A stretch of DNA of 58,385 nt from a virus (Duplodnaviria; Caudoviricetes). Below the pieces are notes generated by a model. That model made no database searches and had not been told where the DNA came from. It worked only from the letters and a program-made list of their open reading frames with translations. Location of the stretch: positions 1 to 58,385 of the IMG/VR virus record IMGVR_UViG_3300034104_000851, one strand, 5' to 3'. The position numbers were made by a program, and so were the translations under genes. Below are positions 418 through 54,501 of the stretch, in pieces. The stretch's first letter is position 1. Every line of letters starts with the position of its first letter.

Positions 418-435
418 TGTATTGTACCTTTTCTT

Positions 436-1647: not shown

Positions 1648-1653
1648 TTTGGC

Positions 1654-1929
1654 ATGACTGAGAAAGAAATAGAGCGGTACTTCTGCAAACGCGTGCGTGC
1701 GGTTGGCGGTTTCGCGTACAAATTCCGCAGCATTACGCAAGTCGGCGTCGCCGACCGCATAGCCTGTATGCCCAACGGTGAGGCTTGGTTCGTGGAACTG
1801 AAGCAACCTAACGGACGCCTATCTGCGTTGCAGCGTATCTTTTGCGATGAGATGACGCACACCAAGCAGCATTACGCCTGCTTATGGTCAAAAGAGGATG
1901 TGGACGAATGGCTCAAACGCTTCAGCTAA
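1654..1929 (+). CDS. VRR-NUC domain nuclease
   Basis: EKEIE...GVADRI...FVELK...GRLSALQ pattern. Confidence 0.9.
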   Translation: MTEKEIERYFCKRVRAVGGFAYKFRSITQVGVADRIACMPNGEAWFVELKQPNGRLSALQRIFCDEMTHTKQHYACLWSKEDVDEWLKRFS

Positions 1930-10964: not shown

Positions 10965-13433
10965 TTATAGCGAAGTAATTGTTTGCCAAGCTGCACCGCT
11001 ATATACGCAGGCTTTGGAAAGCGTAGTATCAAATACCATAAGACCAGCCGCAGGGCTAGATATAGCGTTCTTTTCAACGGTTGTCATGTTGGGTAGACGA
11101 AAACCTTTGGTAGTTGACTGCACATCCAAAATTGCGGATGCGTTTGCCGTAGCCCCAATTCCGACGTTACCGTTGCCGTCAATACGCATACGCTCATCTG
11201 CGGTAGTCCAGTTAGCCGCGCCTGCGCTGCTGGCGTTATAGAAAATTAACGAGCCTTGGCCGTTAGCGTTTTGCCGAAGAATACCGATTGCAGCTTTGGA
11301 ATATGTGGTATCAGATGAAAACTCAATACCGCCGATACCTGACCCGCTATTGCTGTTCTGTGACCGAATACCGGCGAAAGCACTTCCGCCCGCTACAGAT
11401 ACGTCAAGACGTTGTTGCGGCGAAGTCGTACCAATTCCGACATTGCCGCTGCTATCTATACGCATACGCTCGTCTGTAGTAGCCCAGTTAGCCGCGCCTG
11501 TGCTGCTGGCATTATAAAAAGCTAGTGTGCCTACACCGTTGGCGGCACCGCGAACCAAGCCGATTGCAGCTTTTGCGTAAGTGGCGTCGGAAGAGAACTC
11601 AATACCGCCGATACCCGATCCGCTATTGCTGTTTTGTGAGCGAATACCAGCGAAAGCACTTCCCCCCGATACAGATACGTCAAGACGTTGCTGCGGTGAA
11701 GTTGTGCCAATCCCGACATTTGTGCCCGTGTCGTAAACAATAGATGCGCTGACGGCTGATGTGCCGTTACCCTTTACCAGATAACCGGATGTGAGCGTGG
11801 TTGCACCCGTGCCGCCGTTGGCTACAGGCAGTGTACCTGTGACTTGAGTTGTAAGGCTGACGTTTGATAGAGTGCCCCCAAGCGTAAGCGATCCCGAAGA
11901 CGTTACCGTTCCTGTAAGCGTAATACCGTTGACAGTTCCCGTACCGCTGACGCTGGTTACAGTGCCAGAACCCTTATTATTGAATGTAGTCCAATCAGTG
12001 CTAGTCAGGTATCCATTGACCGAAGCTGTAGCTGCGGCCATACTAATAGCCGGAGTGGTGCCGCCAGAAGACACAACAGGGGCCGTGCCAGTGACGCTGG
12101 TGACCGTGCCTGTGGTTGGTGTTGTCCATGTAGGAACGCCAGCCCCTGCGGATGTAAGCACTTGTCCAGATGTGCCAGCAGCCGTAAACGCGTATGCTGT
12201 TCCTGTTCCATAAGGCACAGCCCCTGCCGTCGGTGCAGATGTTCCATTAGTGCCGCCATTGGCAATAGGGAGCGTGCCTGAGACTTGTGTTGTGAGGCTT
12301 ACACCAGACAGTGTGCCGCCAAGCGTTAGTGACCCTGAAGACGTTACCGTTCCTGTCAGCGTAATTCCATTTACCGTACCTGTGCCGCTGACGCTAGTAA
12401 CCGTTCCCGACCCTTTATTGTTAAAAGTAGTCCAATCGGTACTGGTAAGATAGCCGTTAACCGAAGTTGTCGCGGCAGGCATACTAATGGCGGGTGTCGT
12501 ACCGCCGCTAGATACAACGGGGGACGTTCCTGTGACGCTAGTGACAGTTCCTGATGCGCCGGTCAAAACGCCAGCAGACAACGTCAAACCGCCAGCTACG
12601 CTGATCTCTTCGGCTGCGCCTGTGCTGGCTGTAGTGCGACCTAATAGACGGCTGGTAGACATCGTAAGGCCATTGGCAGAAGCATACGCACTGGGGGCAA
12701 CATAGTCAGTTGCCGCGACCGCTGCGGACAGCGCGGTTCCGTTACCCTTTATCAGACCTGTAACTGACGTGGATAAAGTGATTGCAGGCGTTGTAGTGGC
12801 AGTAGCAACGGTTCCTGCAAATCCATTAGCTGAAACAACAGAAACGCTTGTAACCGTTCCAGTTCCCGCTGTAGAGGAAATGGTAATTGAGCCTGAACCG
12901 TTAGTGATGCTGATGTTTGTGCCAGCAATCAGAGTGGCTTTGGTTAGCGTGTTGCCTGTTGTGTTGCCAATCAGAAGCTGGCCGTCTGTATAGGTAGTCT
13001 GGCCCGTGCCGCCATTGGCTACAGCCAACGTGCCGCCAAGTGTGAGCGTGCCGCTTGTCGTGATCGGGGAGCCTGTAAAGGTCAGGCCAGTTGTTCCACC
13101 AGACGCAGCAACTGAAGTGACAGTGCCGCCAAGATCAGGCGGCGTAACACCGAAAGCATTTTGCAGATTGTTTAAGCTACTCTCTAGGCTTGCCACCATA
13201 CCATCAGACGTAATTGCGGACGCTTGTGTAGCTGTTGCCAGCATGGCGTCGTAGGTAGCTAACAGTGATGCTGTGTCTGGCCCTAACGTAACTTCTTCTT
13301 GATTAGCCTGCGTAGCAGTCAACAGTGACAGAAAAAACCTGTACCATTCACGACTAATCGCGCCTGACCGTTCGTCAATAAAAGCGACGCGCGGCGGCGT
13401 TAGCTGGGTGGGGTTGATCGGCGCCAATGCCAT
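10965..13433 (-). CDS. Tail needle/central fibre (gp26 position), long form
   Basis: PPRV..ID.RSG.ISREWYRFF N-terminus after gp10; GTVTSV, LPVANGGT and ERMRID..GNVGIG fibre repeats. Confidence 0.8.
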   Translation of the reverse strand: MALAPINPTQLTPPRVAFIDERSGAISREWYRFFLSLLTATQANQEEVTLGPDTASLLATYDAMLATATQASAITSDGMVASLESSLNNLQNAFGVTPPDLGGTVTSVAASGGTTGLTFTGSPITTSGTLTLGGTLAVANGGTGQTTYTDGQLLIGNTTGNTLTKATLIAGTNISITNGSGSITISSTAGTGTVTSVSVVSANGFAGTVATATTTPAITLSTSVTGLIKGNGTALSAAVAATDYVAPSAYASANGLTMSTSRLLGRTTASTGAAEEISVAGGLTLSAGVLTGASGTVTSVTGTSPVVSSGGTTPAISMPAATTSVNGYLTSTDWTTFNNKGSGTVTSVSGTGTVNGITLTGTVTSSGSLTLGGTLSGVSLTTQVSGTLPIANGGTNGTSAPTAGAVPYGTGTAYAFTAAGTSGQVLTSAGAGVPTWTTPTTGTVTSVTGTAPVVSSGGTTPAISMAAATASVNGYLTSTDWTTFNNKGSGTVTSVSGTGTVNGITLTGTVTSSGSLTLGGTLSNVSLTTQVTGTLPVANGGTGATTLTSGYLVKGNGTSAVSASIVYDTGTNVGIGTTSPQQRLDVSVSGGSAFAGIRSQNSNSGSGIGGIEFSSDATYAKAAIGLVRGAANGVGTLAFYNASSTGAANWATTDERMRIDSSGNVGIGTTSPQQRLDVSVAGGSAFAGIRSQNSNSGSGIGGIEFSSDTTYSKAAIGILRQNANGQGSLIFYNASSAGAANWTTADERMRIDGNGNVGIGATANASAILDVQSTTKGFRLPNMTTVEKNAISSPAAGLMVFDTTLSKACVYSGAAWQTITSL
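11169..11720 (-). repeat. Two tandem 276-bp (92-aa) repeats in the needle C-terminus
   Basis: NVGIGTTSPQQRLDVSV...ERMRID unit at 11445-11720 and 11169-11444. Confidence 0.9.
11808..12551 (-). repeat. Two ~303-bp repeats 441 bp apart in the needle shaft
   Basis: GTVTSVTGT...TSTDWTTFNNK...LP(I/V)ANGGT at 12249-12551 and 11808-12110. Confidence 0.9.
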
Positions 13434-14959
13434 CAGGCGTTTGTCCCACTAAGTATCAGTTCAGCGCCCATGATATAAATCCGTACAGGGTCTGTGCCAG
13501 ACACTTCGTAGACGCGGTCGCGTATCTTCATCGTTGCGCCAAGGCGACGCCATATTGTTCGGAAGCCAAACCGGCCAATTTTCCCCATCGACTTCCAATG
13601 TTCATTAGACCATGTATGGCCGCCGTCATCGGAAAAACGCAACATGACTTGTGGGTTATACCCCGGCGTGTCGGGATACGCCATTGTCACAAGAAAAGTG
13701 CCATCTTCTGTGGTTATGTTAACTTCCGTTTCAGTAACTAACTCTTGTTCGCCTGCGCCGGGAGACAATTCAAGTCCTACACCAGTTTCGCAGTCAAGCT
13801 GCATTGAATGTTGAATAGTGCGCGAGAGGTTGTTAGCGCCTGTTGGCAACGCGCGCCACGACCGCAGCCATTTCTGTGGTTCGCCATCGTCAGCGTACAC
13901 ATTCAAATCAAACTCGTAAATCTTGCCGTTTTCGTAGTCGCCAACAACCGTGGTATTATTAAAGAACATCTGGTTATTGGCGCGGTGACGGTTAAAATCA
14001 CCGTTAGCAAACGATGCGCGCTCATGCCACGCACCAGTAGCAACATCATACACCCATGTTGTGTCGGCGCTGGGGAAGTTTAAAACGTAAAAGCTATGGC
14101 CATCCTGCTGATATGTGTAGCCTGTCGCGTCTGAAATGTCAGCATACTCTTGCATCTGCCATTCGATAGCGTGCGTCGAAACGCGCTGTCCGATGTAACC
14201 CGCAGCTTTGTAAACAATCCCTTGACCGCGCGCGTCCCTACCTAGCCAGTAGACTTGGTTGTCCATTTTGGCGATGCTGTAAGGCGCGGCGCACCCCAGT
14301 TCGTTAAACGCACCTTGGATACGCGCCAGCGGAAAGTCGAGCAGCCCTGCGTCATACCAGACTTCGGTTGAGTTTGTGCCAAACACCCAGACTTCGCGGT
14401 GATCCACAAAGACCGCAACAACATTGTCTGGATTGCCTTCAGCGCTGGAAAATTCCAGTGGGTCAATACTGGTTCCATCAAGTAATTGCGTAACCCAGAT
14501 TTTTTGGCTGTTAGGTTCATTGAACGTAAAATATCCGTCGATGTAACCCACCGTGCCTGCGCCGGGGAAATCTGGGTCGCCAATTTGCTGAAATACGTTG
14601 GTGCTGGCGTTATAGATGTAGCCTTGCGGATTAGCCGCAATAAATAGTTGCGTTCCGTTGTCAGCCATGCTGACAGGGCCCGAACCCCCCACACTACCTT
14701 TAGCGGTTGCGTTCCAGCTGCTGTCGATCTGATACAGTGTCGGGCCTGAGACAACATAGCCGTAGCCGCCATACGTCCACATACCGCGGATAGGACCAAT
14801 GCCAACGGTAGCTAGAACAGTCAGCCCCGGCGCGCGCTGAAGAAACGCTGGCTCCTTGCCGCCTTCAGGAACGATCTCAGGAAACAAGTTAACCATGCGG
14901 TTGTTGGCGGCATTGACGCTTCTAGCGACATACGCGGAACCAAGGATGGGCGTTTTCAT
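13433..14959 (-). CDS. Tail nozzle / DNA stabilization protein, P22 gp10-like
   Basis: VNLFPE, STEVWYDAG, STHAIE, HSFYVL.FP, SDDGGHTWS motifs; 32 aa longer than copy B. Confidence 0.9.
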   Translation of the reverse strand: MKTPILGSAYVARSVNAANNRMVNLFPEIVPEGGKEPAFLQRAPGLTVLATVGIGPIRGMWTYGGYGYVVSGPTLYQIDSSWNATAKGSVGGSGPVSMADNGTQLFIAANPQGYIYNASTNVFQQIGDPDFPGAGTVGYIDGYFTFNEPNSQKIWVTQLLDGTSIDPLEFSSAEGNPDNVVAVFVDHREVWVFGTNSTEVWYDAGLLDFPLARIQGAFNELGCAAPYSIAKMDNQVYWLGRDARGQGIVYKAAGYIGQRVSTHAIEWQMQEYADISDATGYTYQQDGHSFYVLNFPSADTTWVYDVATGAWHERASFANGDFNRHRANNQMFFNNTTVVGDYENGKIYEFDLNVYADDGEPQKWLRSWRALPTGANNLSRTIQHSMQLDCETGVGLELSPGAGEQELVTETEVNITTEDGTFLVTMAYPDTPGYNPQVMLRFSDDGGHTWSNEHWKSMGKIGRFGFRTIWRRLGATMKIRDRVYEVSGTDPVRIYIMGAELILSGTNA

Positions 14960-14964
14960 GTTAA

Positions 14965-15126
14965 TCAAACACTTTCTTGTGTGTTGCCCGGCGGTTGAGG
15001 AGCATCACAAATCTCCGCAAGTTTTTCGTTCATCAAGCGCATCTGATGACGAAGCTGGATGATTTCCAAGTCGCGCTCACCAAGAGCGCGCGCAAGAGAA
15101 TCAAAATCAATCGGAAGCGGGTTCAA
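14965..15126 (-). CDS. Small coiled-coil protein, possible fibre chaperone (variant A only)
   Basis: LARALGERDLEIIQLRHQMRLMNEKL; TTG start overlapping the fibre stop (start uncertain). Confidence 0.5.
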   Translation of the reverse strand: MNPLPIDFDSLARALGERDLEIIQLRHQMRLMNEKLAEICDAPQPPGNTQESV

Positions 15127-16313
15127 TTTACCACTCTTAGGGAGCGGAACCCTACCCCGGCAGTGTCTGCTGCGTCCTGTGTAATTTGCTTGAGAGTACT
15201 TCCTACCCGTATCCACACAGGGTTATCGGCAGCCCCATCTACCCGCATTTGCTCGTTTGTGTCGACCCACAATTCTAACAACCGTCCAGTGGACGCCTGC
15301 CATTTCGTTTCGACGCGAATACCGCGCGCGGACACTTCGTTAACTGATGTAGTGAGGTAGACCATCCAGTTGTTTATCTTGCCCTCTGCCTGAAGAATTT
15401 GACGCCAGCCAGCCGACGTTGCCGTGTTGGAAGCATAAAATGCGGTGTCTGATTGCGACCCTGATGCCGCATCAGATTGCGCCCAATAAGCTGTATAATT
15501 GCTGGCACCGACCTGACCGGGGCGAAGCCCAGCAGACGAGGAGAAATTAATGACATCGACTTCAATTCCAACGACGTTTGTTGGCGCATTTCCAGAAGTC
15601 TGTGCTGCGATGATGTTGGCGCCGAACACATCCCACGGCGTAGTTCCAGCGCCCGTGTTGGTTTGCGCGATGGCGGATACACCAACCATTATTCTTTTAG
15701 ACGGATCGGCTGAAATCGGTGCATTAGTTGAATACGCGCGGAATGAAGCGCCGTTAACTTCAGCTTCACAGCCAGCTTCAGCGATATGTTCAGTTGTGAT
15801 CGCGCTAATTTTATACTCATTACCCCAAACTGATCGCGCTTGAGTTAGTGCGGTACTGTTATGAACTTCCACATAAGCGCCAGTGCGGGCATAAGACAGC
15901 GTACTGTCAGGAGTAGTAGCAGTTCCTCTGAACACCGACACACCATTTTGTGCTGCTTTAGCAAAGTTATTGGCTCCCGGCTCATTAAGCTGGCCAAGAG
16001 TCCCTTCGTAAAACCCGCCTCTTGAAATAGAGACATATCCGGGGGAAAGCATATCTCCACTAGAACCAAAAATAACCTTGGTTGTCCCTGCGCCCACTTT
16101 AGCATTAGCAAGAGTGTCGTAATCGGCAGCGTTTACCGTGCCGCGCAGTTTGGCTTGTATTGTCTGCAATACCGCACCTGTGCCAGATTGCACAAAGCCA
16201 ATAGTGGCTACACCTGCGCGTTTCGTAACGCCGTCTTGAACAACCGGCATCTCAACTGTGCTGGCCAACGGCGAAGTTGCTAAAGGAAGACCTGTAATAG
16301 TGACAGTCGGCAT
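15123..16313 (-). CDS. Accessory tail fibre/spike (variant A only)
   Basis: N-terminal motif shared with 22457..23323; FVQSGTGAV.QTIQAKL neck typical of tailspikes. Confidence 0.75.
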   Translation of the reverse strand: MPTVTITGLPLATSPLASTVEMPVVQDGVTKRAGVATIGFVQSGTGAVLQTIQAKLRGTVNAADYDTLANAKVGAGTTKVIFGSSGDMLSPGYVSISRGGFYEGTLGQLNEPGANNFAKAAQNGVSVFRGTATTPDSTLSYARTGAYVEVHNSTALTQARSVWGNEYKISAITTEHIAEAGCEAEVNGASFRAYSTNAPISADPSKRIMVGVSAIAQTNTGAGTTPWDVFGANIIAAQTSGNAPTNVVGIEVDVINFSSSAGLRPGQVGASNYTAYWAQSDAASGSQSDTAFYASNTATSAGWRQILQAEGKINNWMVYLTTSVNEVSARGIRVETKWQASTGRLLELWVDTNEQMRVDGAADNPVWIRVGSTLKQITQDAADTAGVGFRSLRVVN

Positions 16314-17023
16314 TAGTAGTTCCCTGCGTAGATGTTAAACCGCTGCCGCGAAGCGATAAGGCTGTACGGTATGGACATGATGTCATCTGGGTTGTTGATA
16401 CGTTTTATGTTACGCTTCGACGACATAGCAATGCGGCGAACCTGTGCCGATGGTTCCTCGCCAAACTCAGGTGCTAATTCGCACGCCAAGTTATAACGGA
16501 ACGCACGCAGATAGCCGGGCGGGAAATGCAGTACTGTCGCCAGCGTTGCAGGCTGAGTTAGTTCCTCAACAGAAATAAAATGCCATTCTAGATTGCGCGT
16601 CGGACGCGGATAGATGTACATCTCAATGTCGGGGAACGTCATGTTGATGAAGATGACTTGCGGGTATGTCGATGTGACGGTCTTGACCGCGATACCGTTA
16701 TACTGCTGCTGGTTGATGAATTTGATGCCGTAGCTGACGCCAGTGCCGGGGTCTTTGAAATAGGTGCTGTCATCAAGCAGCACTGGGCGGTTGCCGACAA
16801 AGTTGCCTGTTGGCCCCAGCGTGCGCGAAAGCTGACCTGACGGCCATGTAAACACTTGGTCTTGCGTCGAGTAGACCGCGAGGCGCTCAGTGTTCCAGCT
16901 ATCAATCATCTGGTTCATGGCGCGCAGTGCGTCCTGCGACGTTTCAGCCGATGGGACTTCACCTTCTGCTAGAACACCTAGCAGTCTAAGCGAACCATTA
17001 ATTATGTCACCAGCAGTTGCCAT
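16313..17023 (-). CDS. Head-tail adaptor, P22 gp4-like
   Basis: TAGDII..SLRLLGVLA.GE...LRAMNQMIDSW; YNLACELAPEFG. Confidence 0.85.
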   Translation of the reverse strand: MATAGDIINGSLRLLGVLAEGEVPSAETSQDALRAMNQMIDSWNTERLAVYSTQDQVFTWPSGQLSRTLGPTGNFVGNRPVLLDDSTYFKDPGTGVSYGIKFINQQQYNGIAVKTVTSTYPQVIFINMTFPDIEMYIYPRPTRNLEWHFISVEELTQPATLATVLHFPPGYLRAFRYNLACELAPEFGEEPSAQVRRIAMSSKRNIKRINNPDDIMSIPYSLIASRQRFNIYAGNY

Positions 17024-17026
17024 TGA

Positions 17027-17203
17027 TTAGTCTTCCTGCGCTTTGCGGCGGCTTTTGGCTACCGGCATTTCGTTGATTGACGCCTTTACAGGCACGTCAG
17101 GATTATAGCGTTCCCAGCCGAAATCTTCATCATAAATCGCTTCTTCTTCTGAAATAGCGACTTTTGCCCCGTGGACATCGTGAACAAGATAGATAACAGC
17201 CAT
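17027..17203 (-). CDS. 58-aa hypothetical protein
   Basis: MAVIYLVHDVHGAKVAISEEEA...; read manually; orthologue at 55215..55394. Confidence 0.75.
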   Translation of the reverse strand: MAVIYLVHDVHGAKVAISEEEAIYDEDFGWERYNPDVPVKASINEMPVAKSRRKAQED

Positions 17204-17214
17204 AAAAAACCTTT

Positions 17215-17240
17215 AAAAATGGACGGCCCGAAAGCCGCCC
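17215..17240 (-). terminator. Intrinsic terminator
   Basis: GGGCGGC-TTTCGG-GCCGTCC then ATTTTT; stem conserved in copy B. Confidence 0.7.
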
Positions 17241-17247
17241 AAATTAA

Positions 17248-17661
17248 TTAAACGCAGTGGATGATTGCGAAGTTAATCACTACTGCTTCTGACAGCGTAC
17301 CGCCAGAAATGTTGCGTAGGCTGATGCTGACAGAGCCAGCAGCCAAACCGTTTGCAAACACGTTGTACGATCCAGCGGTCGCTTGACCGCCAGAGATAGT
17401 AAGAATAACAGTGTCATTTGCAGAAATGAAGCTGTTGTTCAGCGTGAACGTAGCGTTAGTGGCAGTAGTCAAAGACGCGTTGTTCATAGTGATACGGCCA
17501 GCAGGCTTGTTCAGCGTAACGGCAGTTGACTTATCTGTCGCCTGCGTGACTGTACCTTGTGCTGCGGCGGTGTAGCCGAGTTGCTCGTCAGCCAAGAGAT
17601 ATTGTGCGCCAATAATATCTTGGTCTAGGAAAGCAACGCCAATAGATTTTGTATTAGCCAT
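17248..17661 (-). CDS. Putative capsid accessory protein
   Basis: Thr/Ala beta-rich (GTVTQAT.KSTAVTLN...GRITM); head operon; orthologue in B. Confidence 0.6.
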   Translation of the reverse strand: MANTKSIGVAFLDQDIIGAQYLLADEQLGYTAAAQGTVTQATDKSTAVTLNKPAGRITMNNASLTTATNATFTLNNSFISANDTVILTISGGQATAGSYNVFANGLAAGSVSISLRNISGGTLSEAVVINFAIIHCV

Positions 17662-17682
17662 TGATTTTCTCCTGAAAAGGAT

Positions 17683-17702
17683 GCCCCGACCGTAGCCGGG
17701 GC
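17683..17702 (-). other. Intergenic hairpin
   Basis: GCCCCGGC-TACG-GTCGGGGC, identical in copy B. Confidence 0.55.
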
Positions 17703-17709
17703 AAACCTA

Positions 17710-18108
17710 TTAGCCAGCGATACGGTACAGGTTGTACGTAGCTTCGCCGGTCTTGACAGCGCGGAACAATACGCTGCGCGATGCAACGCCTGTACCAACG
17801 CCAACCAACGTCCAGCCAGTGCCTACTACGATAGTAGGAACGCCAGTGCTGGTAGCAATCAAAGAAAACTCAAACGATGAGTTAACTTTGGCGCTGCTGA
17901 TGTCAGCGTTAACAACGGTGACTGCAGGAAGCGTAAGGTCAGCAGTAGACGACGAAGTGTAGACAACTGCGCCACCAGCCAAATCGGCAGTGGTCAGTGT
18001 AGCGGCTGCGGTGTACGCGGTAGGGATTGCGGATACGCCCAGCGTGACTTCGCCGAGGTTGCCGTCGCCAACTTGATAACCGCCGGCGCCATTAGGTAGA
18101 ATAGCCAT
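17710..18108 (-). CDS. Putative capsid decoration protein
   Basis: Directly after the coat gene; beta-rich; orthologue in B. Confidence 0.6.
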   Translation of the reverse strand: MAILPNGAGGYQVGDGNLGEVTLGVSAIPTAYTAAATLTTADLAGGAVVYTSSSTADLTLPAVTVVNADISSAKVNSSFEFSLIATSTGVPTIVVGTGWTLVGVGTGVASRSVLFRAVKTGEATYNLYRIAG

Positions 18109-18131
18109 ATTATAAATCCTTTAAAATGTTT

Positions 18132-18153
18132 GGCCCCCAGCGAACTGGGGGCC
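18132..18153 (-). other. UUCG tetraloop hairpin after the coat gene
   Basis: GGCCCCCAG-TTCG-CTGGGGGCC; two compensated pairs in copy B. Confidence 0.8.
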
Positions 18154-18162
18154 GGTATTAGG

Positions 18163-19371
18163 TTAACCCCAGAGACGGCAGGCCATTTGCGGACGGATCG
18201 TGCTGTAGCCATACAGAACGTCGATACGGCAAGGCATACGGTCGTTGTTGATGTCGTACTGACGAACAACGCGAAGCGAGATGCCGTTATGCACCTGACG
18301 CGAAGCCATATCTACGCCCTGTGGGAGCAGAAGGTCGGCGGTTGCGAAGGTGATAGCGTCCTTGTGGTATACGAGGTTCTGCGCGTATTGCGTAGAAGCC
18401 GCGCCGACGAACACGATTGCCTTGCTGTTGCCGGGCAGTGTGTTGACAGTGGCAAGTGCGTGTGCAGCCGAGTAGATTGCAGCAACAGTGATGTTACCAG
18501 CGCCTGCGCCGCTGAGCGTGACATCAGCAAGAGCAACGAACTGGAACAACGAACCAGTGCTTTCACGGGTCTGTGGGTTGACAGCAAAGCAGTCAGCTAC
18601 AGTGAACACGTCGCCAGCCTTAACGGTAGCCGATGCGCCAGCGCCAGTGATGGCAATGGTGGTTGCGCCTTCCGACGTAACAGCAGCCGAAGTCGTGCCG
18701 CCAGTTGCAGTACGCGAACCAGTGGTGAACTGCTTGATGGACTGCGACATATTGATTTCTTCAAAACCAAGTACGCCGGTACCCATCATGCCGTTCTTGA
18801 ACTGCTTGCTGACAGTGTCGGTTGGGTTGAAAAGACCCTTCATGCCTTCGACCAAACCAGCGTTTGCGGCTGGGTTGACAGTGGCATAACGTGGCGACAT
18901 TACGGCAGCGTTTTCGTTCAGCTTCTGCTGTGCAGCAAGAAGAACAGCCGAAGTCGATGGCGTAGTGCCGGGCGTGCCAACAGTGTTACCGATGGTTGCA
19001 TACGCATTCGCAACGTCAGCGTCGATGCTGGAAGCAAGCTGCGAGATACGTGGCTTCAGAACGCGCTCTGCGAAATCATCAAGCTGCATGGTCAATTCAG
19101 CAGTCGTGAAGTTAACGCCGATGTGCTTCTGGTTGGCAACGGTCAGAGTTGTGAACTGCTCGTTGTCATCCTGTACCTGAAGGGCTGCGCCATCAGTTAC
19201 AAGTGCGCGGTCTGGAAGACGGATACGCAGGGTTGAACCAATTTTAGCACCTTCAACAGCAAAGCTGTCATCGTACTGACGGTTTACGTTACGTGTAAGA
19301 ACCAAGTTGTTTTCGAGAATCTCAAGCGCCTTACGCGTGATCATGTCGATGGTTAAAATCGAGTTACTCAT
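18163..19371 (-). CDS. Major capsid protein (P22 coat family)
   Basis: N..LT..MITR.AL.ILEN.L, KIG.TLRIRLP, C-terminal RIDVLYG...RP. Confidence 0.92.
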   Translation of the reverse strand: MSNSILTIDMITRKALEILENNLVLTRNVNRQYDDSFAVEGAKIGSTLRIRLPDRALVTDGAALQVQDDNEQFTTLTVANQKHIGVNFTTAELTMQLDDFAERVLKPRISQLASSIDADVANAYATIGNTVGTPGTTPSTSAVLLAAQQKLNENAAVMSPRYATVNPAANAGLVEGMKGLFNPTDTVSKQFKNGMMGTGVLGFEEINMSQSIKQFTTGSRTATGGTTSAAVTSEGATTIAITGAGASATVKAGDVFTVADCFAVNPQTRESTGSLFQFVALADVTLSGAGAGNITVAAIYSAAHALATVNTLPGNSKAIVFVGAASTQYAQNLVYHKDAITFATADLLLPQGVDMASRQVHNGISLRVVRQYDINNDRMPCRIDVLYGYSTIRPQMACRLWG

Positions 19372-19386
19372 GGAAATAATCCTAAT

Positions 19387-20175
19387 TTATCGGTTGCGTT
19401 GTGCCTCGTACTTCTTGATCTGCCGTAGCCGTTCTGCCTCAATCCAATCTGACGTACTCATGGACTTTACTGACCGTGGGTCTGTCGTATCAAATGTTGG
19501 CGCACCAGCGGTGCGGGCATTGACAGGTGCAATCGGTGCCGGGGCGTTGGATGTTTTTTTGAATGTAGGTTCGGCTGAAAGCCGCGCCTCAATCATTCCA
19601 ATTTCCCTAGCTTGCAAAATGGGGTCTAAACGCGAAATACGCTGGGCATCTTTTGTGTTGATACCTAAGTGATAAATCACGTCGGGGCCAACGTCGGATG
19701 CTTGTATTGCCATTGCCATCGCGTCGGTGATCGGAAGGTTGGGGTTGTATGCGACTTGTTCAAAGTCATCATACTTGTCCCGCGCTGCCTCTTCACGTTC
19801 GTGATAAGACTCTAGCATTGCACGTTGCTGGTTATCCCTTTCACGGCGTACCAGCATTTCTTCGGCTTTACGCTCAGCCAAAACCTCTGCGTAATCCTCG
19901 TAAGTCTCAAATTGTTCAGGGGTTATGTCGTGGATCGGCTGCTGCCGTGCCTGCACTTCCTCTGCCCTTTGAGCCTGTTCGCGTTCCCATTTACGCTGCT
20001 CTCTTGCGAGTCGTTTACCTACGATGGCGTCTAAGTCTTCTTGTGAAAAAGTCTTAGGTGCTTCCTGATCAGCAGACTGCTCTTCCGGCGTCGTGTTTTC
20101 TACAGGCTCGATTGCTGCCGTGGCTTCGAGTTCTGGCGCGGAGGCATCCGCTTCGGTAAAGACATTATCGTCCAT
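19387..20175 (-). CDS. Scaffolding protein
   Basis: Acidic/coiled-coil protein upstream of coat; GPDVIYHLG and APAPIAPV motifs. Confidence 0.8.
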   Translation of the reverse strand: MDDNVFTEADASAPELEATAAIEPVENTTPEEQSADQEAPKTFSQEDLDAIVGKRLAREQRKWEREQAQRAEEVQARQQPIHDITPEQFETYEDYAEVLAERKAEEMLVRRERDNQQRAMLESYHEREEAARDKYDDFEQVAYNPNLPITDAMAMAIQASDVGPDVIYHLGINTKDAQRISRLDPILQAREIGMIEARLSAEPTFKKTSNAPAPIAPVNARTAGAPTFDTTDPRSVKSMSTSDWIEAERLRQIKKYEAQRNR

Positions 20176-20226
20176 GTTTAACCCTTAAAGAGTTCCTGAT
20201 GAGCCGCATCAGTACGGTTGGTGGCT

Positions 20227-22456: not shown

Positions 22457-23323
22457 TTATACGGTGTAAGTAATGGACGCACCCACATATTTTCCAGCGC
22501 CAGCAGAAATATTTATGTAAGCGCCGGTCACTGCGTCAAGAAATGAAATTCGGTTGTCAGCAGACTGAATATGGGCTGTCGCTACCGCAGAACCCATACC
22601 TATAAAAAAGCATGACCCGTATGCACGTTCAGCAGAACTGGAAAAGGGCAGCCCCGTAATAAGCAAAACGCCAGATGCGCCCGTAGTATTTACGTTAAAC
22701 AATGAGATTTGCGCCGTCACTTGACGACCTATGCGGGTGTAACGTCCGCTAGCGGTAACTGGCGTGGTAGGCGCGGCGGCGTCGCCTGTCAGTGTACCTG
22801 TCCATACACCTTCCTCATAGTCATTCAGCAATTCGCTGGTCATGCCAGCAGCGTGCGTTGCTGCGCTGAAGTCAATGCCTTTGCCAGCGGCGCTAGGAAC
22901 GAAGTTACCAGAAGCAAGTTTCAGGTCGCCATTTGGAAACAAAGCCATTGTTTCGGGAAAACTAGCGATAGGACTTCCAGCCGTTCCAGACGCCGCGCTG
23001 TACCAAACATGGAAGCCAGAGTTTTGCTGATACCATCCAGCGGCACCAGTTACGTTATAGCGCAGAGCATTATCATAATACCAGTTTGAGCCGATATTAT
23101 TATAGACGCCTTTTGAAAACAGTCCGCCATCGTTAGGTACGTCGAGATGCCCCGGCCCAGTCCAAGCCATCTTGGTTGTCGCAACCGCTACGTTGTTTTG
23201 CGTCTGAGTGAGGTCAGCAACTGATACTTTAACGGTAGCGCCGCTCTGAACAATAGGCAAAACTTCTGTGCCAGCAAGGGGGCTGGCAGCAGTTGTAAGC
23301 GCGGAAATCTTTTTATCAGCCAT
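22457..23323 (-). CDS. Fibre protein
   Basis: N-terminal ADKKISAL...PIVQSGAT; C-terminal GIDFSA...YEEGVWT...GRYTRIGRQVT...ITGLPF. Confidence 0.75.
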   Translation of the reverse strand: MADKKISALTTAASPLAGTEVLPIVQSGATVKVSVADLTQTQNNVAVATTKMAWTGPGHLDVPNDGGLFSKGVYNNIGSNWYYDNALRYNVTGAAGWYQQNSGFHVWYSAASGTAGSPIASFPETMALFPNGDLKLASGNFVPSAAGKGIDFSAATHAAGMTSELLNDYEEGVWTGTLTGDAAAPTTPVTASGRYTRIGRQVTAQISLFNVNTTGASGVLLITGLPFSSSAERAYGSCFFIGMGSAVATAHIQSADNRISFLDAVTGAYINISAGAGKYVGASITYTV

Positions 23324-23334: not shown

Positions 23335-25224
23335 TTACAAATTGCCTTCAGACACCCAAGTTCCGGGCTGCCCTGATACGGTACAAATCCAACCTTTTGG
23401 TGAGCCAACAGCGGGTGATGCGTTCATTACGCGGCTTCCCTTGCACCATTTGATATTGCCGTAGTCGCCGGGGTTAGATTGAGGACTGGTTGGGCCAAAC
23501 AATATTTTAGGGTGGACTAACGATCCAGTTACGGTGTCTGTGTAAATGCCGCCAAACGAAAGCTGTCCATCTGTCGGGTTAAGCGCAAAAAAGCGGCTTC
23601 CAGCGGCAAACACTTGATCGCCACCCAACCAGTAAGATACGTTTCCTACAGGAGCGCGTCCGCTCGTGCTAAGAGAAGCGTATCCTTCATACAGTTCAAT
23701 CGAAGCGTAATCCGTACCAAGATTGAGCGCGCCGCGAGAGTTTTGTGTACCAAACTTATGCAAGCGGCCAGTAACTGCGTTTCCACCAGAAACCAAGCCT
23801 GTAGCAGTATCGCCCCATTTAATTGCGTATTCGTTTGCCGTAATCATGGCGGCGTCTTGCTGGATGCCGTTGCCAGTGATCGTCAAACCTTTATGAAGCG
23901 CAGTACCCTTATCGCACTCAATATCACCGCCGGCGTTACCTTCCAGATAGTTTCCGGTGATTGTAACGCCATAGCAAGCTGCAAGGCTGATAGCTGGGCC
24001 TGCAACGCCACTCAAACCTTGAATGACGTTCCCGTCGATTGTGCAAGTGTTCATCGCAGGATCGGCAGCGGCGTCATAAATTGACAGGAAGGCGTCGCCT
24101 TGCTCAATTAGGTTGTTGGTGAAATGCAAATCGTAAGCAATAGGCATTGCGGCAAAATAGCCTGTCCAACCCCATGCACTGCAACCCATCGCATAGATAG
24201 ACTGCGCGTAGAGCGTGCTGTTGTTAAACATCCGAATACGGTCAAAAGCGCAGTTCGAGAAAATAATGCGGCGATACGTTGCGCCGTTAATAACTTGTGC
24301 CAGCACGCCAGCATCAGTCTTAAAATACATATTGTCGAAAGTGATTAATTCAGCATCAAGGTTTGTAACAAACATCGTGCCGGCATCAGCTTTATATAGG
24401 CCGCCTGCGCCGCCGCCAGACACGACAAGCCGCTTTTGAGTTGTCAAAAGCGAACGGTCAATCGTGATGAAAAAGACCTTCGCAAGTCCGGGAAAAAATA
24501 GGTTTACATCGTTCGCAACTGCATAATCAAAAGCGTCTTGAACTGCTGCCGTGTCATCCGTCACGCCATCGCAAACAGCACCGAAATCTTTGACCGAAAC
24601 ATATTCTGCCAGCTTGTCTTGGACGTTGGTGGCTACGCTGCCGGTAAACGGTGGGTCATAGCTAACAATCGACGCGTCTACAGCGCCAGTAGTAGTCTGG
24701 ATTGCTGTGGTGAACTTTACCTCACCGCCGACGTGTACGCCAGACGTAAACGTCACGGTGTCGCTGTCCGTCTCCAGATAGCTGTCACCAACATACTGGT
24801 TCACGCCGTCGATGTAGACGGTCAGCGAGTTCGTGCCGGGCGTGTAGTTGATCGTCGAAAGGTTGAACACGGTCTGGCCGGCGGTAGCCGTGATGACTTC
24901 TTCCTGCACCGTGTAGTTGACGAAATTCGAGTTGACGCCAGTGATGTTGTCGTAAGTGCCCAGCAGGATGCCTGTGGCTGTCTCAATAACAAACTTATAG
25001 ACCAGACCGTCAGTCAGCCAAATTTCGCCGCCCGGTACGCGTCCTGCGCTGTCCAAAATGATAGGGTTTGCGTGCGGCGTGACGCCAGACGCGCTGGTAT
25101 ACGTGACTTGCGGCGTAGTTGTGCCGGCTGCATAGGTATAAATCTTGCCGCCCGACAGGATAACGCCGTTATTGTCGAAGAACTGCGCTGCGAAGCCGCC
25201 GATGGGCGAAGGGGTTACTGACAT
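23335..25224 (-). CDS. Primary tailspike
   Basis: Virion-binding N-terminus (GKIYTYAAGTTTP...NPIILDSAGR), TATAGQTVF domain, VSVKDFGA..DGVTDDT beta-helix start. Confidence 0.85.
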   Translation of the reverse strand: MSVTPSPIGGFAAQFFDNNGVILSGGKIYTYAAGTTTPQVTYTSASGVTPHANPIILDSAGRVPGGEIWLTDGLVYKFVIETATGILLGTYDNITGVNSNFVNYTVQEEVITATAGQTVFNLSTINYTPGTNSLTVYIDGVNQYVGDSYLETDSDTVTFTSGVHVGGEVKFTTAIQTTTGAVDASIVSYDPPFTGSVATNVQDKLAEYVSVKDFGAVCDGVTDDTAAVQDAFDYAVANDVNLFFPGLAKVFFITIDRSLLTTQKRLVVSGGGAGGLYKADAGTMFVTNLDAELITFDNMYFKTDAGVLAQVINGATYRRIIFSNCAFDRIRMFNNSTLYAQSIYAMGCSAWGWTGYFAAMPIAYDLHFTNNLIEQGDAFLSIYDAAADPAMNTCTIDGNVIQGLSGVAGPAISLAACYGVTITGNYLEGNAGGDIECDKGTALHKGLTITGNGIQQDAAMITANEYAIKWGDTATGLVSGGNAVTGRLHKFGTQNSRGALNLGTDYASIELYEGYASLSTSGRAPVGNVSYWLGGDQVFAAGSRFFALNPTDGQLSFGGIYTDTVTGSLVHPKILFGPTSPQSNPGDYGNIKWCKGSRVMNASPAVGSPKGWICTVSGQPGTWVSEGNL

Positions 25225-25228: not shown

Positions 25229-25390
25229 TTACTCCAGCAGCAACAATCCGCCGTCCTCTTGGACGAGGTTGTCACCTATTTCAGTTAGCAGATTGCCTTG
25301 CACGGTCGCGTCAGAGTAGCCAGACAGAAAGCTAATAATGCTCCCTAACCCTAAAGCAATACCATTACGAAGCGCGCCGCCGAAGCCCAT
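25229..25390 (-). CDS. 53-aa protein, putative fibre linker
   Basis: Read manually: MGFGGALRNGIALGLGSIISFLSGYSDATVQGNLLTEIGDNLVQEDGGLLLLE; fills the gap with 3-4 nt spacing on each side. Confidence 0.8.
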   Translation of the reverse strand: MGFGGALRNGIALGLGSIISFLSGYSDATVQGNLLTEIGDNLVQEDGGLLLLE

Positions 25391-52423: not shown

Positions 52424-53071
52424 TTAATACAGCAAAGTGTTAAACGAAGCGGCTTGCATGATAACCCAATTTGTGCCGTTTGACACTAGGGTAGCCCAGT
52501 TACCAGACACGTTAAGCAAAATCGACGTTCCGGCTGCACCGCCGCCCTGCGGCACGACGTTGCTGGACGCAGAGTCAAGGTTCTGGTCTTGGTTGTTCTG
52601 GAACGTAAGATACCGCCCGACATTGGTTGCGGCGGCTGGCAGCGTGACAACGCAAGTCGATCCTGACTTGTTGTTAATTATCCACGTCTCATCCGTCACC
52701 GTAAAGTCTGCCGTAAAGGTGACAGGTGCGGTAGACGCCGGTATCAGCGCCCGTATCGCCAATTCGTCAAGCGGCGGCGGCGACAAGGCCAGCGCCTGTA
52801 CTTCGCTTTGCACCACAGCCAAGTCAGACGCGGACGCGCCGTCGGGCTGCGTCTCTGTGGTCTGCGTCAGCGTTTCCAACAACGCGTCGTAGGTTGCCAA
52901 CAGCGATGACGTATCGGGCGCTACCTCAACTTCACTTTGGTTGGCTTGCGTAGCTGTTAGCAGCGACAGAAAGAACCGATACCATTCACGGCTAATCGCG
53001 CCAGACCGCGGGTCGATAAATTCAACACGCGGCGGCGTTAGCTGGGTAGGGTTAATCGGCGCCAGCGCCAT
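52424..53071 (-). CDS. Tail needle, short form (B)
   Basis: First ~70 aa shared with 10965..13433; C-terminal VTLPAA...LVSNGTNWVI knob. Confidence 0.8.
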   Translation of the reverse strand: MALAPINPTQLTPPRVEFIDPRSGAISREWYRFFLSLLTATQANQSEVEVAPDTSSLLATYDALLETLTQTTETQPDGASASDLAVVQSEVQALALSPPPLDELAIRALIPASTAPVTFTADFTVTDETWIINNKSGSTCVVTLPAAATNVGRYLTFQNNQDQNLDSASSNVVPQGGGAAGTSILLNVSGNWATLVSNGTNWVIMQAASFNTLLY

Positions 53072-54501
53072 TAGGCAGTTGTCCCGCTGAGCAGCAGTTC
53101 AGCGCCCATGATGTAAATCCGTACAGGGTCGGTGCCTGACACTTCGTAGACGCGGTCGCGTATCTTCATCGTCGCGCCAAGGCGGCGCCAAATGGTACGA
53201 TAGCCAGAACGGCCAATACGGCCCATCGACTTCCAGTGTTCGCTGGACCATGTGTGCCCGCCGTCGTCCGACCAGCGCAGCATGGCTTGCGGGTTGCTGC
53301 CTTGGCCGTTGTTCAGACCCACGCCTGTTTCGCAGTCAAGCTGCATGGAGTGCTGGATAGTACGCGCGAGGTTGTTAGCGCCCGTCGGCAGCGCGCGCCA
53401 CGACCGCAGCCATTTCTGCGGCGCGCCATCGTCAGCGTACACGGTCAAATCAAACGAATAAATCTTGCCGGTCTGGTAGTCGCCAACAACCGTAGTGGCG
53501 TTGAAAAACATCTGACTGCTGGCGCGGTGACGGTTAAACTCGCCGTTAGCAAACGACGCCCGCTCATGCCATGCGCCGGTGGCGGCGTCGTACACCCATG
53601 TGGTGTTGGCAGTGGGGAAGTTTAGCACGTAGAAGCTGTGGCCGTCCTGCTGATACGTGTAGCCGGTCGCATCTGAGATGTCGGCATACTCTTGCATCTG
53701 CCATTCGATAGCGTGCGTAGATACGCGCTGACCGATGTAGCCAGCGGCCTTGTAGACAATCCCTTGACCGCGCGCGTCTTTGCCCAGCCAGAAAATCTGG
53801 TTGTCCATCTTGGCGATGCTGTAAGGGGCGGCGCAGCCTATTTCGTTAAACGCACCTTGGATACGGGCCAGCGGGAAGTCGAGCAGCCCTGCGTCGTACC
53901 AAACTTCGGTCGAGTTGGTTCCGAATACCCACACTTCGCGGTGGTCCACAAAGATAGCGGCTACGTTGTCTGGGTTGCCTTCTGCGCTGGAAAACTCCAG
54001 CGGGTCAATGCTGGTTCCGTCCAGTAGCTGCGTAACCCAAATCTTTTGGCTGTTGGGTTCGTTGAACACAAAGTAGCCGTCGATGTAGCCGACCGTACCT
54101 GCGCCGGGGAAGTCAGGGTCGGTAATCTGCTGGAACACGTCGGTGCTGGCGTTGTAGATATAGCCTAATGGGTTAGCGGCGATGAATAGCTGCGTGCCGT
54201 TGTCAGCCATGCTGACAGGGCCAGAGCCGCCCACCGTGCCTTTAGCGACAGCGTTCCAGTTGTTGTCTACCTGAAACAGCGTCGGGCCAGAAACGACATA
54301 GCCGTAATTGCCATAAGTCCACATACCGCGGATCGGGCCAACGCCGATAGTCGCAAGAGCAGTCAGCCCCGGCGCGCGCTGAAGGAACGCTGGTTCCTTG
54401 CCGCCTTCAGGGACAATCTCAGGAAACAGGTTAACCATACGGTTGTCGGCGGCGTTGACGCTTCTAGCGACATACGCCGACCCAAGGATCGGCGTCTTCA
54501 T
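53071..54501 (-). CDS. Tail nozzle, gp10-like (B)
   Basis: Orthologue of 13433..14959 lacking the loop insertion. Confidence 0.9.
   Translation of the reverse strand: MKTPILGSAYVARSVNAADNRMVNLFPEIVPEGGKEPAFLQRAPGLTALATIGVGPIRGMWTYGNYGYVVSGPTLFQVDNNWNAVAKGTVGGSGPVSMADNGTQLFIAANPLGYIYNASTDVFQQITDPDFPGAGTVGYIDGYFVFNEPNSQKIWVTQLLDGTSIDPLEFSSAEGNPDNVAAIFVDHREVWVFGTNSTEVWYDAGLLDFPLARIQGAFNEIGCAAPYSIAKMDNQIFWLGKDARGQGIVYKAAGYIGQRVSTHAIEWQMQEYADISDATGYTYQQDGHSFYVLNFPTANTTWVYDAATGAWHERASFANGEFNRHRASSQMFFNATTVVGDYQTGKIYSFDLTVYADDGAPQKWLRSWRALPTGANNLARTIQHSMQLDCETGVGLNNGQGSNPQAMLRWSDDGGHTWSSEHWKSMGRIGRSGYRTIWRRLGATMKIRDRVYEVSGTDPVRIYIMGAELLLSGTTA

What the first reader, a model, noticed from the sequence alone, without database searches (positions are those of the whole stretch)
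13658..16313. Candidate peptide docking system: a TE..EDG loop in the nozzle appears together with an extra fibre
Seen: gp10 of A has ELSPGAGEQELVTETEVNITTEDGTFLVTMAYPDTPGY (13658-13771) where B has NNGQGS. Only A has the adjacent fibre 15123..16313 and its small partner. The loop aligns without gaps to the C-terminus of the 53-aa ORF at 25229 (LVTETEVNITTEDGTFLV vs LLTEIGDNLVQEDGGLLL). The fibre N-terminus aligns without gaps to that of 22457..23323 (ITGLPLATSPLASTVEMPVVQDGVT vs ISALTTAASPLAGTEVLPIVQSGAT). So there are two peptides and two matching fibres, and one pair is absent as a unit in B. Inference: a portable ~20-aa tag captures fibres carrying the ~35-aa N-terminal domain, letting the phage attach adhesins wherever the tag is inserted. 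I am not aware of this pairing being described, but could not search.
Basis: partly seen in the sequence, partly recalled or inferred. Interest (0 to 1): 0.85.

Follow-up and report, generated by a model that had tools for sequence, protein, structure and literature searches.

The report
Peptide plug that docks phage fibres
A short three-part peptide, found in a loop of the tail nozzle and at the end of a tiny separate protein, probably acts as a plug that captures tail fibres through a shared 40-residue socket at their start, giving phages a portable way to add new host-binding fibres.

Summary
Nozzle A (13433-14959, -) carries a 38-residue loop where its 84%-identical twin B has 6 residues. 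A alone has a fibre gene between adaptor and nozzle. The loop core and the C-terminus of the 53-aa ORF share one motif: three hydrophobic triplets spaced 8 residues apart. Leave-out matrices rank each as the other's best non-self hit in the window. Both fibres start with one ~40-residue domain.

Across 106 related nozzles with a known adaptor-nozzle gap, a fibre gene with this domain sits beside the nozzle in 40 of 64 tag-bearing nozzles and 0 of 42 without. The link survives a phylogenetic control (median p 0.016). Of 80 loci picked by the 53-aa protein, 70 have such a fibre downstream, mostly abutting.

A complex prediction of three fibre N-termini with the 53-aa protein scored 0.63 against 0.02 for the best control, with the interface on the tag.

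Against a strict rule: three complete genomes have the fibre domain but no tag, and several phages have two tags but one fibre.

Binding is predicted, not shown. I rate it a new variant of known fibre-anchoring systems.

The parts
13433..14959 (-). Nozzle / tail hub of copy A (P22 gp10 type, PHROG 'head closure Hc3'), 508 aa
   Evidence: phrog_578 E 2.8e-128. AF2 model pLDDT 78.7, pTM 0.82, beta-propeller. Foldseek: P22 gp10 8eap_D TMq 0.78, Pan3 9vyg_M, Pam1 7eeq_1.
13658..13771 (-). 38-residue loop (residues 397-434) where copy B has 6 residues
   Evidence: Single gap in the A/B alignment. Blastn break at 13657/13773. pLDDT below 50 over 394-434 in the monomer model.
13688..13741 (-). Tag core in the loop (residues 407-424): three hydrophobic triplets 8 residues apart
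   Evidence: Best non-self hit of the small53-only matrix, 13.0 bits against 1.0 for the next hit. Same register as 40 other nozzle loops.
14965..15126 (-). Possible small ORF: 53 aa from a TTG overlapping fibre1's stop, or 83 aa from the GTG at 15216. Unverified.
   Evidence: Open frame. No tblastn match in L001-L080. No Pfam or PHROG family.
15123..16313 (-). Fibre1, 396 aa: N-terminal socket domain plus a receptor-binding body related to pectate-lyase-like spikes
   Evidence: N-domain HMM E 2.1e-8. Residues 45-396 have 20 relatives, 3 with PF12708, carried on at least 5 different N-terminal anchors including PF03906.
16188..16313 (-). N-terminal socket domain of fibre1 (residues 1-42)
   Evidence: Alignment A1: invariant M1, I6, L9, A12, Q26, T30; nearly invariant P23, V25.
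16313..17023 (-). Head-to-tail adaptor of copy A (P22 gp4 type)
   Evidence: phrog_12985 E 3.2e-47; phrog_637 'head-tail adaptor Ad3' E 6e-10.
22457..23323 (-). Fibre2, 288 aa; socket domain at 23198-23323
   Evidence: N-domain HMM E 8.8e-8. 6590 protein clusters share residues 1-42.
25229..25390 (-). small53: 53-aa protein with a glycine-rich hydrophobic N-terminus; C-terminal tag at 25232-25291
   Evidence: 207 related clusters, all unnamed, no Pfam. Alignment A4. Residues 30-53 form the predicted interface.
23335..25224 (-). Tailspike (629 aa, beta-helix) with a different N-terminal anchor, lying between small53 and fibre2
   Evidence: PF13229 and PF12708; tail spike PHROGs.
53071..54501 (-). 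Nozzle of copy B, 476 aa, no loop, directly abutting its adaptor (54501-55211)

Best explanation
The window holds a P22-like podophage whose tail fibres are mounted by a plug-and-socket system.

The socket is a ~40-residue domain at the N-terminus of otherwise unrelated fibres.

The plug is a ~22-residue peptide of three units spaced 8 residues apart. Each unit is two or three hydrophobic residues, usually followed by Glu and a Gly/Asp/Asn turn. The plug is presented by the virion in two ways: as an insert in a surface loop of the nozzle (P22 gp10 type), or as the C-terminus of a tiny separate protein (small53).

In the model, one plug lies on the three-fold axis of one fibre trimer. Each 8-residue unit pairs with the first strand (residues 4-6) of one subunit and touches P23 and T30 of the others. 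Six nozzle loops would therefore hold six extra fibres.

Copy A gained both the loop and the fibre1 gene. Copy B has neither.

What is shown: the shared motif, the shared fibre domain, and the co-occurrence. What is predicted: the complex of small53 with the fibre2 N-terminus. What is inferred: that the nozzle loop binds fibre1 in the same way, and that small53 is itself fixed in the virion.
For: Motif and domain are real.
- Leave-out matrices; reciprocal HMM from 24 small53 C-termini, whose 12 best non-self hits among 37,976 ORFs all fall on nozzle loops.
- N-domain HMM trained on other loci hits only fibre1 and fibre2 in the window.

Co-occurrence.
- Of 106 nozzles with a known adaptor-nozzle gap: tag plus adjacent N-domain fibre 40, tag only 24, neither 42, adjacent fibre without tag 0 (L100 corrected).
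- On a nozzle tree built without the loop columns, the adjacent-fibre trait changes 21 times.
- In 12 independent pairs that differ in it, the tag goes the same way in 6.8, the other way in 0, and does not differ in 5.2; median p 0.016.
- The two indels lie 1.2 kb apart in the genome.

Gene neighbourhood.
- 70 of 80 loci picked by small53 have an N-domain fibre downstream, at a median of 166 nt from small53's start. The 10 without have at most 2233 nt of downstream sequence.

Portability.
- The tag ends five small proteins whose N-terminal parts look unalike by eye, each in a locus that also holds an N-domain fibre: L183/L185, L114, L129, L163, and L194 (same record as L134).
- L194 lies in a phage whose nozzle is 27% identical. 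L163 lies in a 57-kb phage with no nozzle match.

Complex prediction.
- Fibre2 residues 1-60 in three copies with small53: ipSAE 0.63 (runs 0.61, 0.67, 0.63) against a best control of 0.02.
- Runs agree in at least 86% of contacts; partner pLDDT at least 58.
- That mark was reached by 58 of 80 solved complexes and 2 of 110 mismatched pairs. These counts hold only roughly here, because my own alignments and three copies were used.
- Interface: small53 residues 30-53 with residues 1-7, 9, 23, 25 and 28-30 of each copy. Five of these (I6, L9, P23, V25, T30) are invariant or nearly invariant columns of A1.
- No solved chain resembles either partner by sequence.

Anchor role of the N-domain.
- Fibre1's body occurs on at least five other N-terminal anchors, one of them PF03906, the T7 tail-fibre N-terminus.

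Loop behaviour.
- The loop is disordered in the monomer model, as expected of a peptide that folds on binding.
Against: - Three complete genomes (G001, G007, G008) have an N-domain fibre but no small53, no nozzle loop and, for G001, no tag of 7 bits or more apart from one spurious hit.
- 24 tag-bearing nozzles have no adjacent fibre. In L048, L120, L153 and L164 there are two tags but one N-domain fibre.
- Of 80 loci picked by the fibre domain, 19 show no tag in the DNA held. Some of these are truncated.
- In a Flavobacterium siphophage the domain lies inside a 504-aa protein, with no tag within the 10.8 kb read.
- HMMER E-values for the cross-family motif link are individually weak, 0.02 to 0.09 at best.
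- The nozzle loop with fibre1 was not modelled. The window's own pair is the more divergent one.
- How small53 would be held in the virion is unknown.
- No experiment exists.
Confidence: 0.6

Rival explanations
1. The N-domain's main seat is elsewhere on the tail. Candidates are the ~160-aa stub or spike with the other anchor type that so often precedes it, or the adaptor-nozzle surface. The tag would then be only an accessory clamp or a second site.
For: - G001, G007 and G008 have the fibre domain without any tag.
- In these and many other loci the fibre gene directly follows a spike or a 160-170-aa stub of the other anchor type.
- Phages with two tags can have one fibre.
Against: - In L048 the N-domain fibre abuts small53 with no stub or spike between them. 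In L153 and L182 the two ORFs also abut, and a 166-nt median makes this the commonest layout.
- An adjacent fibre never occurs with a loopless nozzle: 0 of 42.
- The predicted interface uses the invariant residues of the domain.
Confidence: 0.2
2. small53 is an assembly factor or chaperone that binds the fibre N-terminus transiently and is not part of the virion. The nozzle loop would be a look-alike with another role.
For: - Tight gene pairing of small53 with the fibre.
- A predicted complex would also fit a chaperone.
- small53 has a hydrophobic, glycine-rich N-terminus of unknown role.
Against: - The same motif sits in the nozzle, a virion protein, and tracks the presence of an extra fibre gene.
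- From memory: known fibre chaperones are usually encoded after the fibre and act on its C-terminus.
Confidence: 0.1
3. Loop and fibre gene travel together only because they are neighbours, and the motif likeness is convergent low-complexity sequence without a shared function.
For: - The two indels are 1.2 kb apart and could move in one recombination.
- The motif is short and rich in common residues.
- HMMER E-values are weak.
Against: - Close nozzle relatives differ in both traits while the body between the indels stays similar. In independent pairs the traits never go opposite ways.
- Matrix hits of 10 bits or more: 137 real against 0 reversed decoys. Hits fall only in nozzle loops, small53 and small ORFs beside N-domain fibres. 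That matrix was trained on the same sequences; the leave-out test is.
Confidence: 0.07

Closest known systems
Chain-like fibres on a 'rope' in podophages GP4, VP1 and A1002
   Same: A stretch of polypeptide on the virion side holds small fibre oligomers by an augmented beta-sheet. The stretch is part of the nozzle-rope protein in A1002 and a separately encoded rope protein in GP4 (PMC13730344: abstract and section 11 read). This parallels the two carriers seen here, nozzle loop and separate small protein.
   Different: There the units are dimers of ~140-170-aa proteins strung 5 to 11 along one rope. Here one short three-unit peptide is predicted to sit in one trimer of a 40-residue N-terminal domain on long, diverse fibres. 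No sequence likeness: profiles A1 and A4 find no solved chain. The GP4 nozzle (8jov_A) is only a distant fold match, TMq 0.53.
Anchor-branch receptor-binding proteins of Klebsiella podophages KP32, K11 and KP34
   Same: A short conserved docking peptide and a matching domain let a second receptor-binding protein be added in modular fashion (PMC13352976 and PMC6872550: search listing and start of abstract only).
   Different: There the peptide is on the incoming second protein and the socket (branching domain) is on the first protein. Here the peptide is on the virion side and the socket is on the incoming fibre.
T7 gp17 N-terminal domain (Pfam PF03906) docking at the adaptor-nozzle junction
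   Same: An N-terminal anchor module on exchangeable fibres. One relative of fibre1's body (P0251) carries PF03906 instead of the domain seen here.
   Different: Pfam finds no family in fibre1 or fibre2. That gp17 binds at the gp11/gp12 interface is recalled, not checked here.
P22 gp9 tailspike head-binding domain on gp4/gp10
   Same: Same tail chassis. The nozzle model matches P22 gp10, and entry 8u10 holds gp10 together with the gp9 N-terminus (title seen).
   Different: The gp9 N-terminal domain is a folded dome of about 100 residues (recalled). No short peptide plug is known there. Sequences are unrelated.

Membership tests
P22 gp10-type nozzle / tail hub (PHROG 578, 'head closure Hc3') | Sequence match to the family profile over its full length | tested here: met
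   phrog_578 E 2.8e-128, residues 3-505 on profile positions 6-471 of 486.
P22 gp10-type nozzle / tail hub (PHROG 578, 'head closure Hc3') | Beta-propeller fold like solved gp10 | tested here: met
   AF2 pTM 0.82. Foldseek 8eap_D and 8u10_1 TMq 0.77-0.78; 9vyg_M E 3.5e-32.
P22 gp10-type nozzle / tail hub (PHROG 578, 'head closure Hc3') | Gene follows the gp4-type adaptor in a P22-like head-tail module | tested here: met
   P22_portal PF16510 E 1.4e-165; adaptor phrog_637; gene order.
T7-type tail fibre anchor (Pfam PF03906) | Profile match at the fibre N-terminus | tested here: not met
   No Pfam family at E <= 0.01 in fibre1 or fibre2.
Rope-and-dimer chain fibres (GP4 / VP1 / A1002) | Sequence relation of plug or socket to the solved rope or fibre proteins | tested here: not met
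   Profiles A1 and A4 and both fibres find no phage chain in the PDB sequence set. A1002's own entry may be newer than that copy.
Rope-and-dimer chain fibres (GP4 / VP1 / A1002) | Binding by beta-sheet augmentation between virion peptide and fibre oligomer | tested here: inconclusive
   The predicted contacts pair tag triplets 34-36 and 42-44 with residues 4-6 of two copies. That fits strand pairing, but no coordinates or secondary structure were returned.
KP32-type anchor-branch system | Docking peptide at the N-terminus of a second receptor-binding protein and a T4 gp10-like branching domain in the first | not tested
   No search for a T4 gp10-like domain was made. Here the polarity is the reverse: the peptide is on the virion side.

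The most novel reading that the evidence does not exclude
A natural, transferable plug made of three 8-residue units inserts along the three-fold axis of a trimeric socket formed by the first ~40 residues of tail fibres. Phages move the plug between carriers (nozzle loop, C-termini of unrelated small proteins) and move the socket between receptor-binding bodies. Any virion surface that acquires the plug then gains a fibre. The system would span several podophage lineages and at least 6590 fibre clusters. It would also be a ready-made, sequence-defined handle for mounting proteins on phage particles.
Probability: 0.45. Interest if true: 0.85.

Novelty: new variant of a known kind. Interest (0 to 1): 0.72.

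Why it matters
How podophages mount several different receptor-binding proteins on one small tail is known for only a handful of cultured phages. Here the two halves of an attachment system are defined by sequence alone: about 22 residues on one side and about 40 on the other. Both are unnamed in every source seen.

The fibre half is very common in the metagenome-derived protein collection searched: 6590 clusters in one length band.

If the plug-and-socket model holds, it would:
- explain how these phages gain or lose a fibre by two small indels;
- let fibre number and placement be read from genomes;
- give a compact natural tag for attaching proteins to phage tails.

It also makes a clear structural prediction, one pseudo-threefold peptide per trimer, that a single pull-down or cryo-EM map could test.

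Tried and rejected
Searches that found nothing or were uninformative:
- Megablast of 13000-17100 against the phage collection: no match.
- Fibre1 as a whole has no close relative in viral contigs by peptide patterns.
- The paper search for '9VYG' was uninformative.

Weak results:
- The loop HMM did not reach the window's own small53 or A loop at E <= 10. I therefore moved to matrices with reversed-sequence decoys and leave-out controls.
- The combined matrix was trained on the sequences it scores. It is used only for cataloguing, not as evidence of likeness.

An error I corrected:
- My first count (39 / 25 / 42 / 0) missed L100, whose fibre ORF began before my position filter.

Rows dropped:
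- Before the tree: L099 (an 833-aa ORF), L081-L083 and L101-L110 (window copies or duplicates of other loci), L119 (duplicate of L071), and nozzle ORFs shorter than 430 aa.
- 7 of 113 tree rows have no known adaptor-nozzle gap and are not counted.
- The tree has four very long rows (L177, L178, L097, L098), flagged.

Ideas tested or left open:
- That the 515-590-nt gaps in L034, L041, L062, L067 and L095 hold fibres: rejected. They hold HNH_3 endonucleases on the other strand.
- Whether the Flavobacterium phage match was chance. The alignment is clearly the same domain but lies inside the protein. No tag was found, and I did not follow it up.
- I could not map the loop onto the P22 gp10/gp9 contact, because no residue mapping or coordinates were available.

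Unused or unavailable resources:
- One structure prediction, the search of protein representatives and both Atlas calls were left unused.
- Supplementary files of papers were not asked for.
Full report
**What the window is**

The record is a virus contig. Its genes read on the - strand as a P22-like podophage morphogenesis module:
- P22-type portal, PF16510, E 1.4e-165;
- gp4-type adaptor;
- gp10-type nozzle, phrog_578, E 2.8e-128.

Self-comparison shows that 1-3216 matches 40672-43899 at 91% identity, and 16311-20195 matches 54499-58385 at 90%. Complete relatives are 38-40 kb long. So the 58-kb record is about one and a half genome lengths made of two variants.

**The observation**

The nozzles of A and B are 84% identical, with a single gap. 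A residues 397-434 (13658-13771) replace six residues of B.

At the DNA level the A/B alignment breaks at two places here:
- at this loop;
- at 14959/16311, where A alone carries fibre1.

The loop core and the C-terminus of the 53-aa ORF ('small53', 25229-25390) share a pattern. It has three hydrophobic triplets spaced 8 residues apart, the first two followed by Glu and a Gly/Asp/Asn turn.

The same pattern appears in loops of 40 other nozzles and in every member of the small53 family.

Leave-out tests within the window give a clean answer.
- A matrix from small53 C-termini of other loci ranks the A loop as best non-self hit: 13.0 bits, next 1.0, best reversed decoy 3.4.
- A matrix from other nozzle loops ranks the A loop at 22.9 and small53 at 21.6, first and second: next 7.0, decoy 10.8.

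Plain HMMER links the two families only weakly.
- The loop HMM reaches small53 homologs at E 0.08 and misses the window's own copies.
- The reciprocal HMM puts nozzle loops in all of its 12 best non-self places among 37,976 ORFs, at domain E from 0.04 upward.

The two fibre N-termini belong to one family. An HMM built from 36 fibres of other loci hits fibre1 (2.1e-8), fibre2 (8.8e-8) and nothing else in the window.

**The fibre domain is a modular anchor**

Among relatives the first ~40 residues are nearly constant and everything after is unrelated. In alignment A1 the columns M1, I6, L9, A12, Q26 and T30 are invariant, and P23 and V25 nearly so.

In the large protein collection, 6590 clusters of 158-504 aa share fibre2 residues 1-42. 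All that carry a name are called 'hypothetical protein'. Some carry PF13884 or PF26696.

Fibre1's body (residues 45-396) has 20 relatives. Three have the pectate-lyase-like PF12708. They sit on at least five other N-terminal anchors, one of which is PF03906, the T7 tail-fibre N-terminus. That is what one expects of a virion-attachment module.

**Co-occurrence with the nozzle loop**

I fetched nozzle homologs from three sources:
- 80 viral loci, the best of at least 600;
- 18 contigs binned into genomes;
- the fibre-centred loci.

For 106 nozzles the adaptor-nozzle gap is known. Corrected counts are:

| Nozzle | Adjacent N-domain fibre | No adjacent fibre |
|---|---|---|
| Tag-bearing loop | 40 | 24 |
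| No tag | 0 | 42 |

My first count was 39 / 25 / 42 / 0. L100 was a false negative of my position filter.

Other gap inserts are HNH_3 homing endonucleases on the opposite strand.

On a nozzle tree built without the loop columns:
- the adjacent-fibre trait needs 21 changes;
- 12 independent pairs differ in it on well-supported branches;
- the tag goes the same way in 6.8 of these, the other way in 0, and does not differ in 5.2;
- the median sign-test p is 0.016.

The tree is a quick search and holds four very long rows.

The loop and the fibre gene are 1.2 kb apart, and close relatives of nozzle A lack both. I read this as repeated joint gain or loss rather than simple linkage.

**Co-occurrence with small53**

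Of 80 loci picked by the fibre2-type N-terminus, 61 hold a tag of 15 bits or more. About 58 hold small53 upstream of the fibre.

Of 80 loci picked by small53, 70 have an N-domain fibre downstream, at a median of 166 nt from small53's start. That means the two genes abut. The 10 without have at most 2233 nt of downstream sequence.

small53 has 207 related clusters, none with a functional name or a Pfam family.

The nearest GenBank record is the metagenome-assembled DSL-LC05. It has small53, a 170-aa stub and the fibre. small53 and the fibre are annotated 'hypothetical protein'; the stub is annotated 'pectate lyase superfamily protein' (PMC10611076 seen in listing only).

**Portability**

The tag also ends small proteins whose N-terminal parts look unalike by eye, always in a locus or record that also holds an N-domain fibre:
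- a 44-aa protein just upstream of a nozzle only 27% identical to ours (L194/G006; its fibre lies in L134 of the same record);
- a 50-aa ORF in a 57-kb phage with terminal repeats and no nozzle match (L163/G010);
- a 44-aa protein (L183/L185);
- a 61-aa protein (L114);
- a 113-aa protein (L129).

**Structure**

The AF2 model of nozzle A is a confident beta-propeller: pLDDT 78.7, pTM 0.82. Residues 394-434 fall below pLDDT 50.

Its best fold matches are the nozzles of cyanophage Pan3, P22, Pam1 and Sf6.

- Score: 0.63 (runs 0.61, 0.67, 0.63) against a best control of 0.02.
- The runs agree in at least 86% of contacts; partner pLDDT is at least 58.
- The mark was reached by 58 of 80 solved complexes and 2 of 110 mismatched pairs. 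These counts hold only roughly here, because my own alignments and three copies were used.

The model supports binding; it does not show it.

The interface is small53 residues 30-53 with residues 1-7, 9, 23, 25 and 28-30 of each fibre copy. This includes the conserved columns I6, L9, P23, V25 and T30.
- Tag residues 34-36 pair with residues 4-6 of one copy.
- Tag residues 42-44 pair with residues 4-6 of the next copy.
- Residues 23 and 30 of the copies touch successive units.

This fits one peptide with three 8-residue units lying on the trimer axis. It would explain both the period of 8 and the count of three.

No solved chain resembles either partner by sequence. A pass from memory is therefore unlikely, though not excluded.

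**What does not fit**

- Three complete genomes (G001, G007, G008) have an N-domain fibre but no small53 and no loop. There the fibre follows a spike or stub of another anchor type, and a different small protein stands where small53 would be.
- L048, L120, L153 and L164 have small53 plus a tag-bearing loop but only one N-domain fibre. L181 has two such fibres beside small53 and a loop that is not tag-like.
- A Flavobacterium siphophage has the domain inside a 504-aa protein, with no tag in the 10.8 kb read.

So the pairing is frequent and specific in one direction: an extra fibre beside the nozzle requires the loop. It is not one-to-one, and the domain can evidently be mounted in another way too.

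**Comparison with what is known**

The nearest solved systems are the chain-like fibres of GP4, VP1 and A1002. There fibre dimers bind a rope by an augmented beta-sheet. The rope is part of the nozzle-rope protein in A1002 and a separate protein in GP4 (PMC13730344: abstract and section 11 read).

The Klebsiella anchor-branch systems use a conserved docking peptide with the opposite polarity (PMC13352976 and PMC6872550: listing and start of abstract only).

I found no description of this plug or this socket:
- Pfam and PHROGs give no named family for small53, fibre1 or fibre2, and none covers fibre2's N-terminus.
- The PDB sequence set has no relative.
- Six paper searches did not turn it up.

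These searches cannot find a motif described only in words I did not use.

**Verdict**

I rate it a new variant of known fibre-anchoring systems, with interest 0.72.

Noticed in passing
window 1-3216 vs 40672-43899; 16311-20195 vs 54499-58385: The 58-kb record is about 1.5 genome lengths of a ~38-40-kb phage, built from two variants ~90% identical. It may be an assembly join of two strains or a mixed concatemer (relatives' sizes).
   Followed up: partly
L034:468-1007, L041:2005-2487, L062:3448-3990, L067:772-1257, L095:2538-3080, L047:8658-9149 (all - strand): HNH_3 homing endonucleases (some with NUMOD4 or AP2) are inserted on the opposite strand between adaptor and nozzle in several relatives. 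The same junction receives the fibre cassette.
   Followed up: yes
window 11155-11444 vs 11431-11720; 11809-12112 vs 12250-12553: The 822-aa protein after the nozzle (10965-13433) holds two pairs of internal tandem repeats, 78-82% identical at DNA level. Its first ~100 residues are shared with B's 215-aa protein.
   Followed up: no
L006:390-932; L167:8552-8671; L148:631-753: Phages without small53 have, in about the same place, proteins of 37-180 aa with a Gly/Phe-rich start. Those of L006 and L167 share a basic C-terminal motif, and L148's is a variant of it. They may be an alternative docking peptide.
   Followed up: no
L273:7686-9200 (NC_048839.1, Flavobacterium phage sniff9-1 gp70): The fibre N-domain occurs inside this 504-aa 'minor tail protein' of a siphophage, starting near residue 105, with no tag in the 10.8 kb read. 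Whether the N-terminal extension replaces the plug in cis is open.
   Followed up: partly
P0244-P0263 (relatives of window 15123-16313): The same receptor-binding body is found on at least five other N-terminal anchor types, including PF03906 in P0251. This is a clear case of anchor swapping.
   Followed up: partly
window 20570-22444; L163:8870-10717; L114:4751-6508: A ~600-aa pectate-lyase-like protein that starts straight with its catalytic fold, with no anchor, directly follows the N-domain fibre in three unrelated contexts. It may ride on that fibre.
   Followed up: no
L051:247-726; L183:9491-9991; L272:8479-8991 and others: Proteins of 160-170 aa that consist only of the other spike-type N-terminal anchor often lie between small53 and the N-domain fibre. 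They may be adaptors.
   Followed up: no
window 14965-15216: An open frame between fibre1 and the nozzle. A TTG at 15126 overlaps fibre1's stop codon and would give 53 aa, which look helical by eye. No relative was found.
   Followed up: partly
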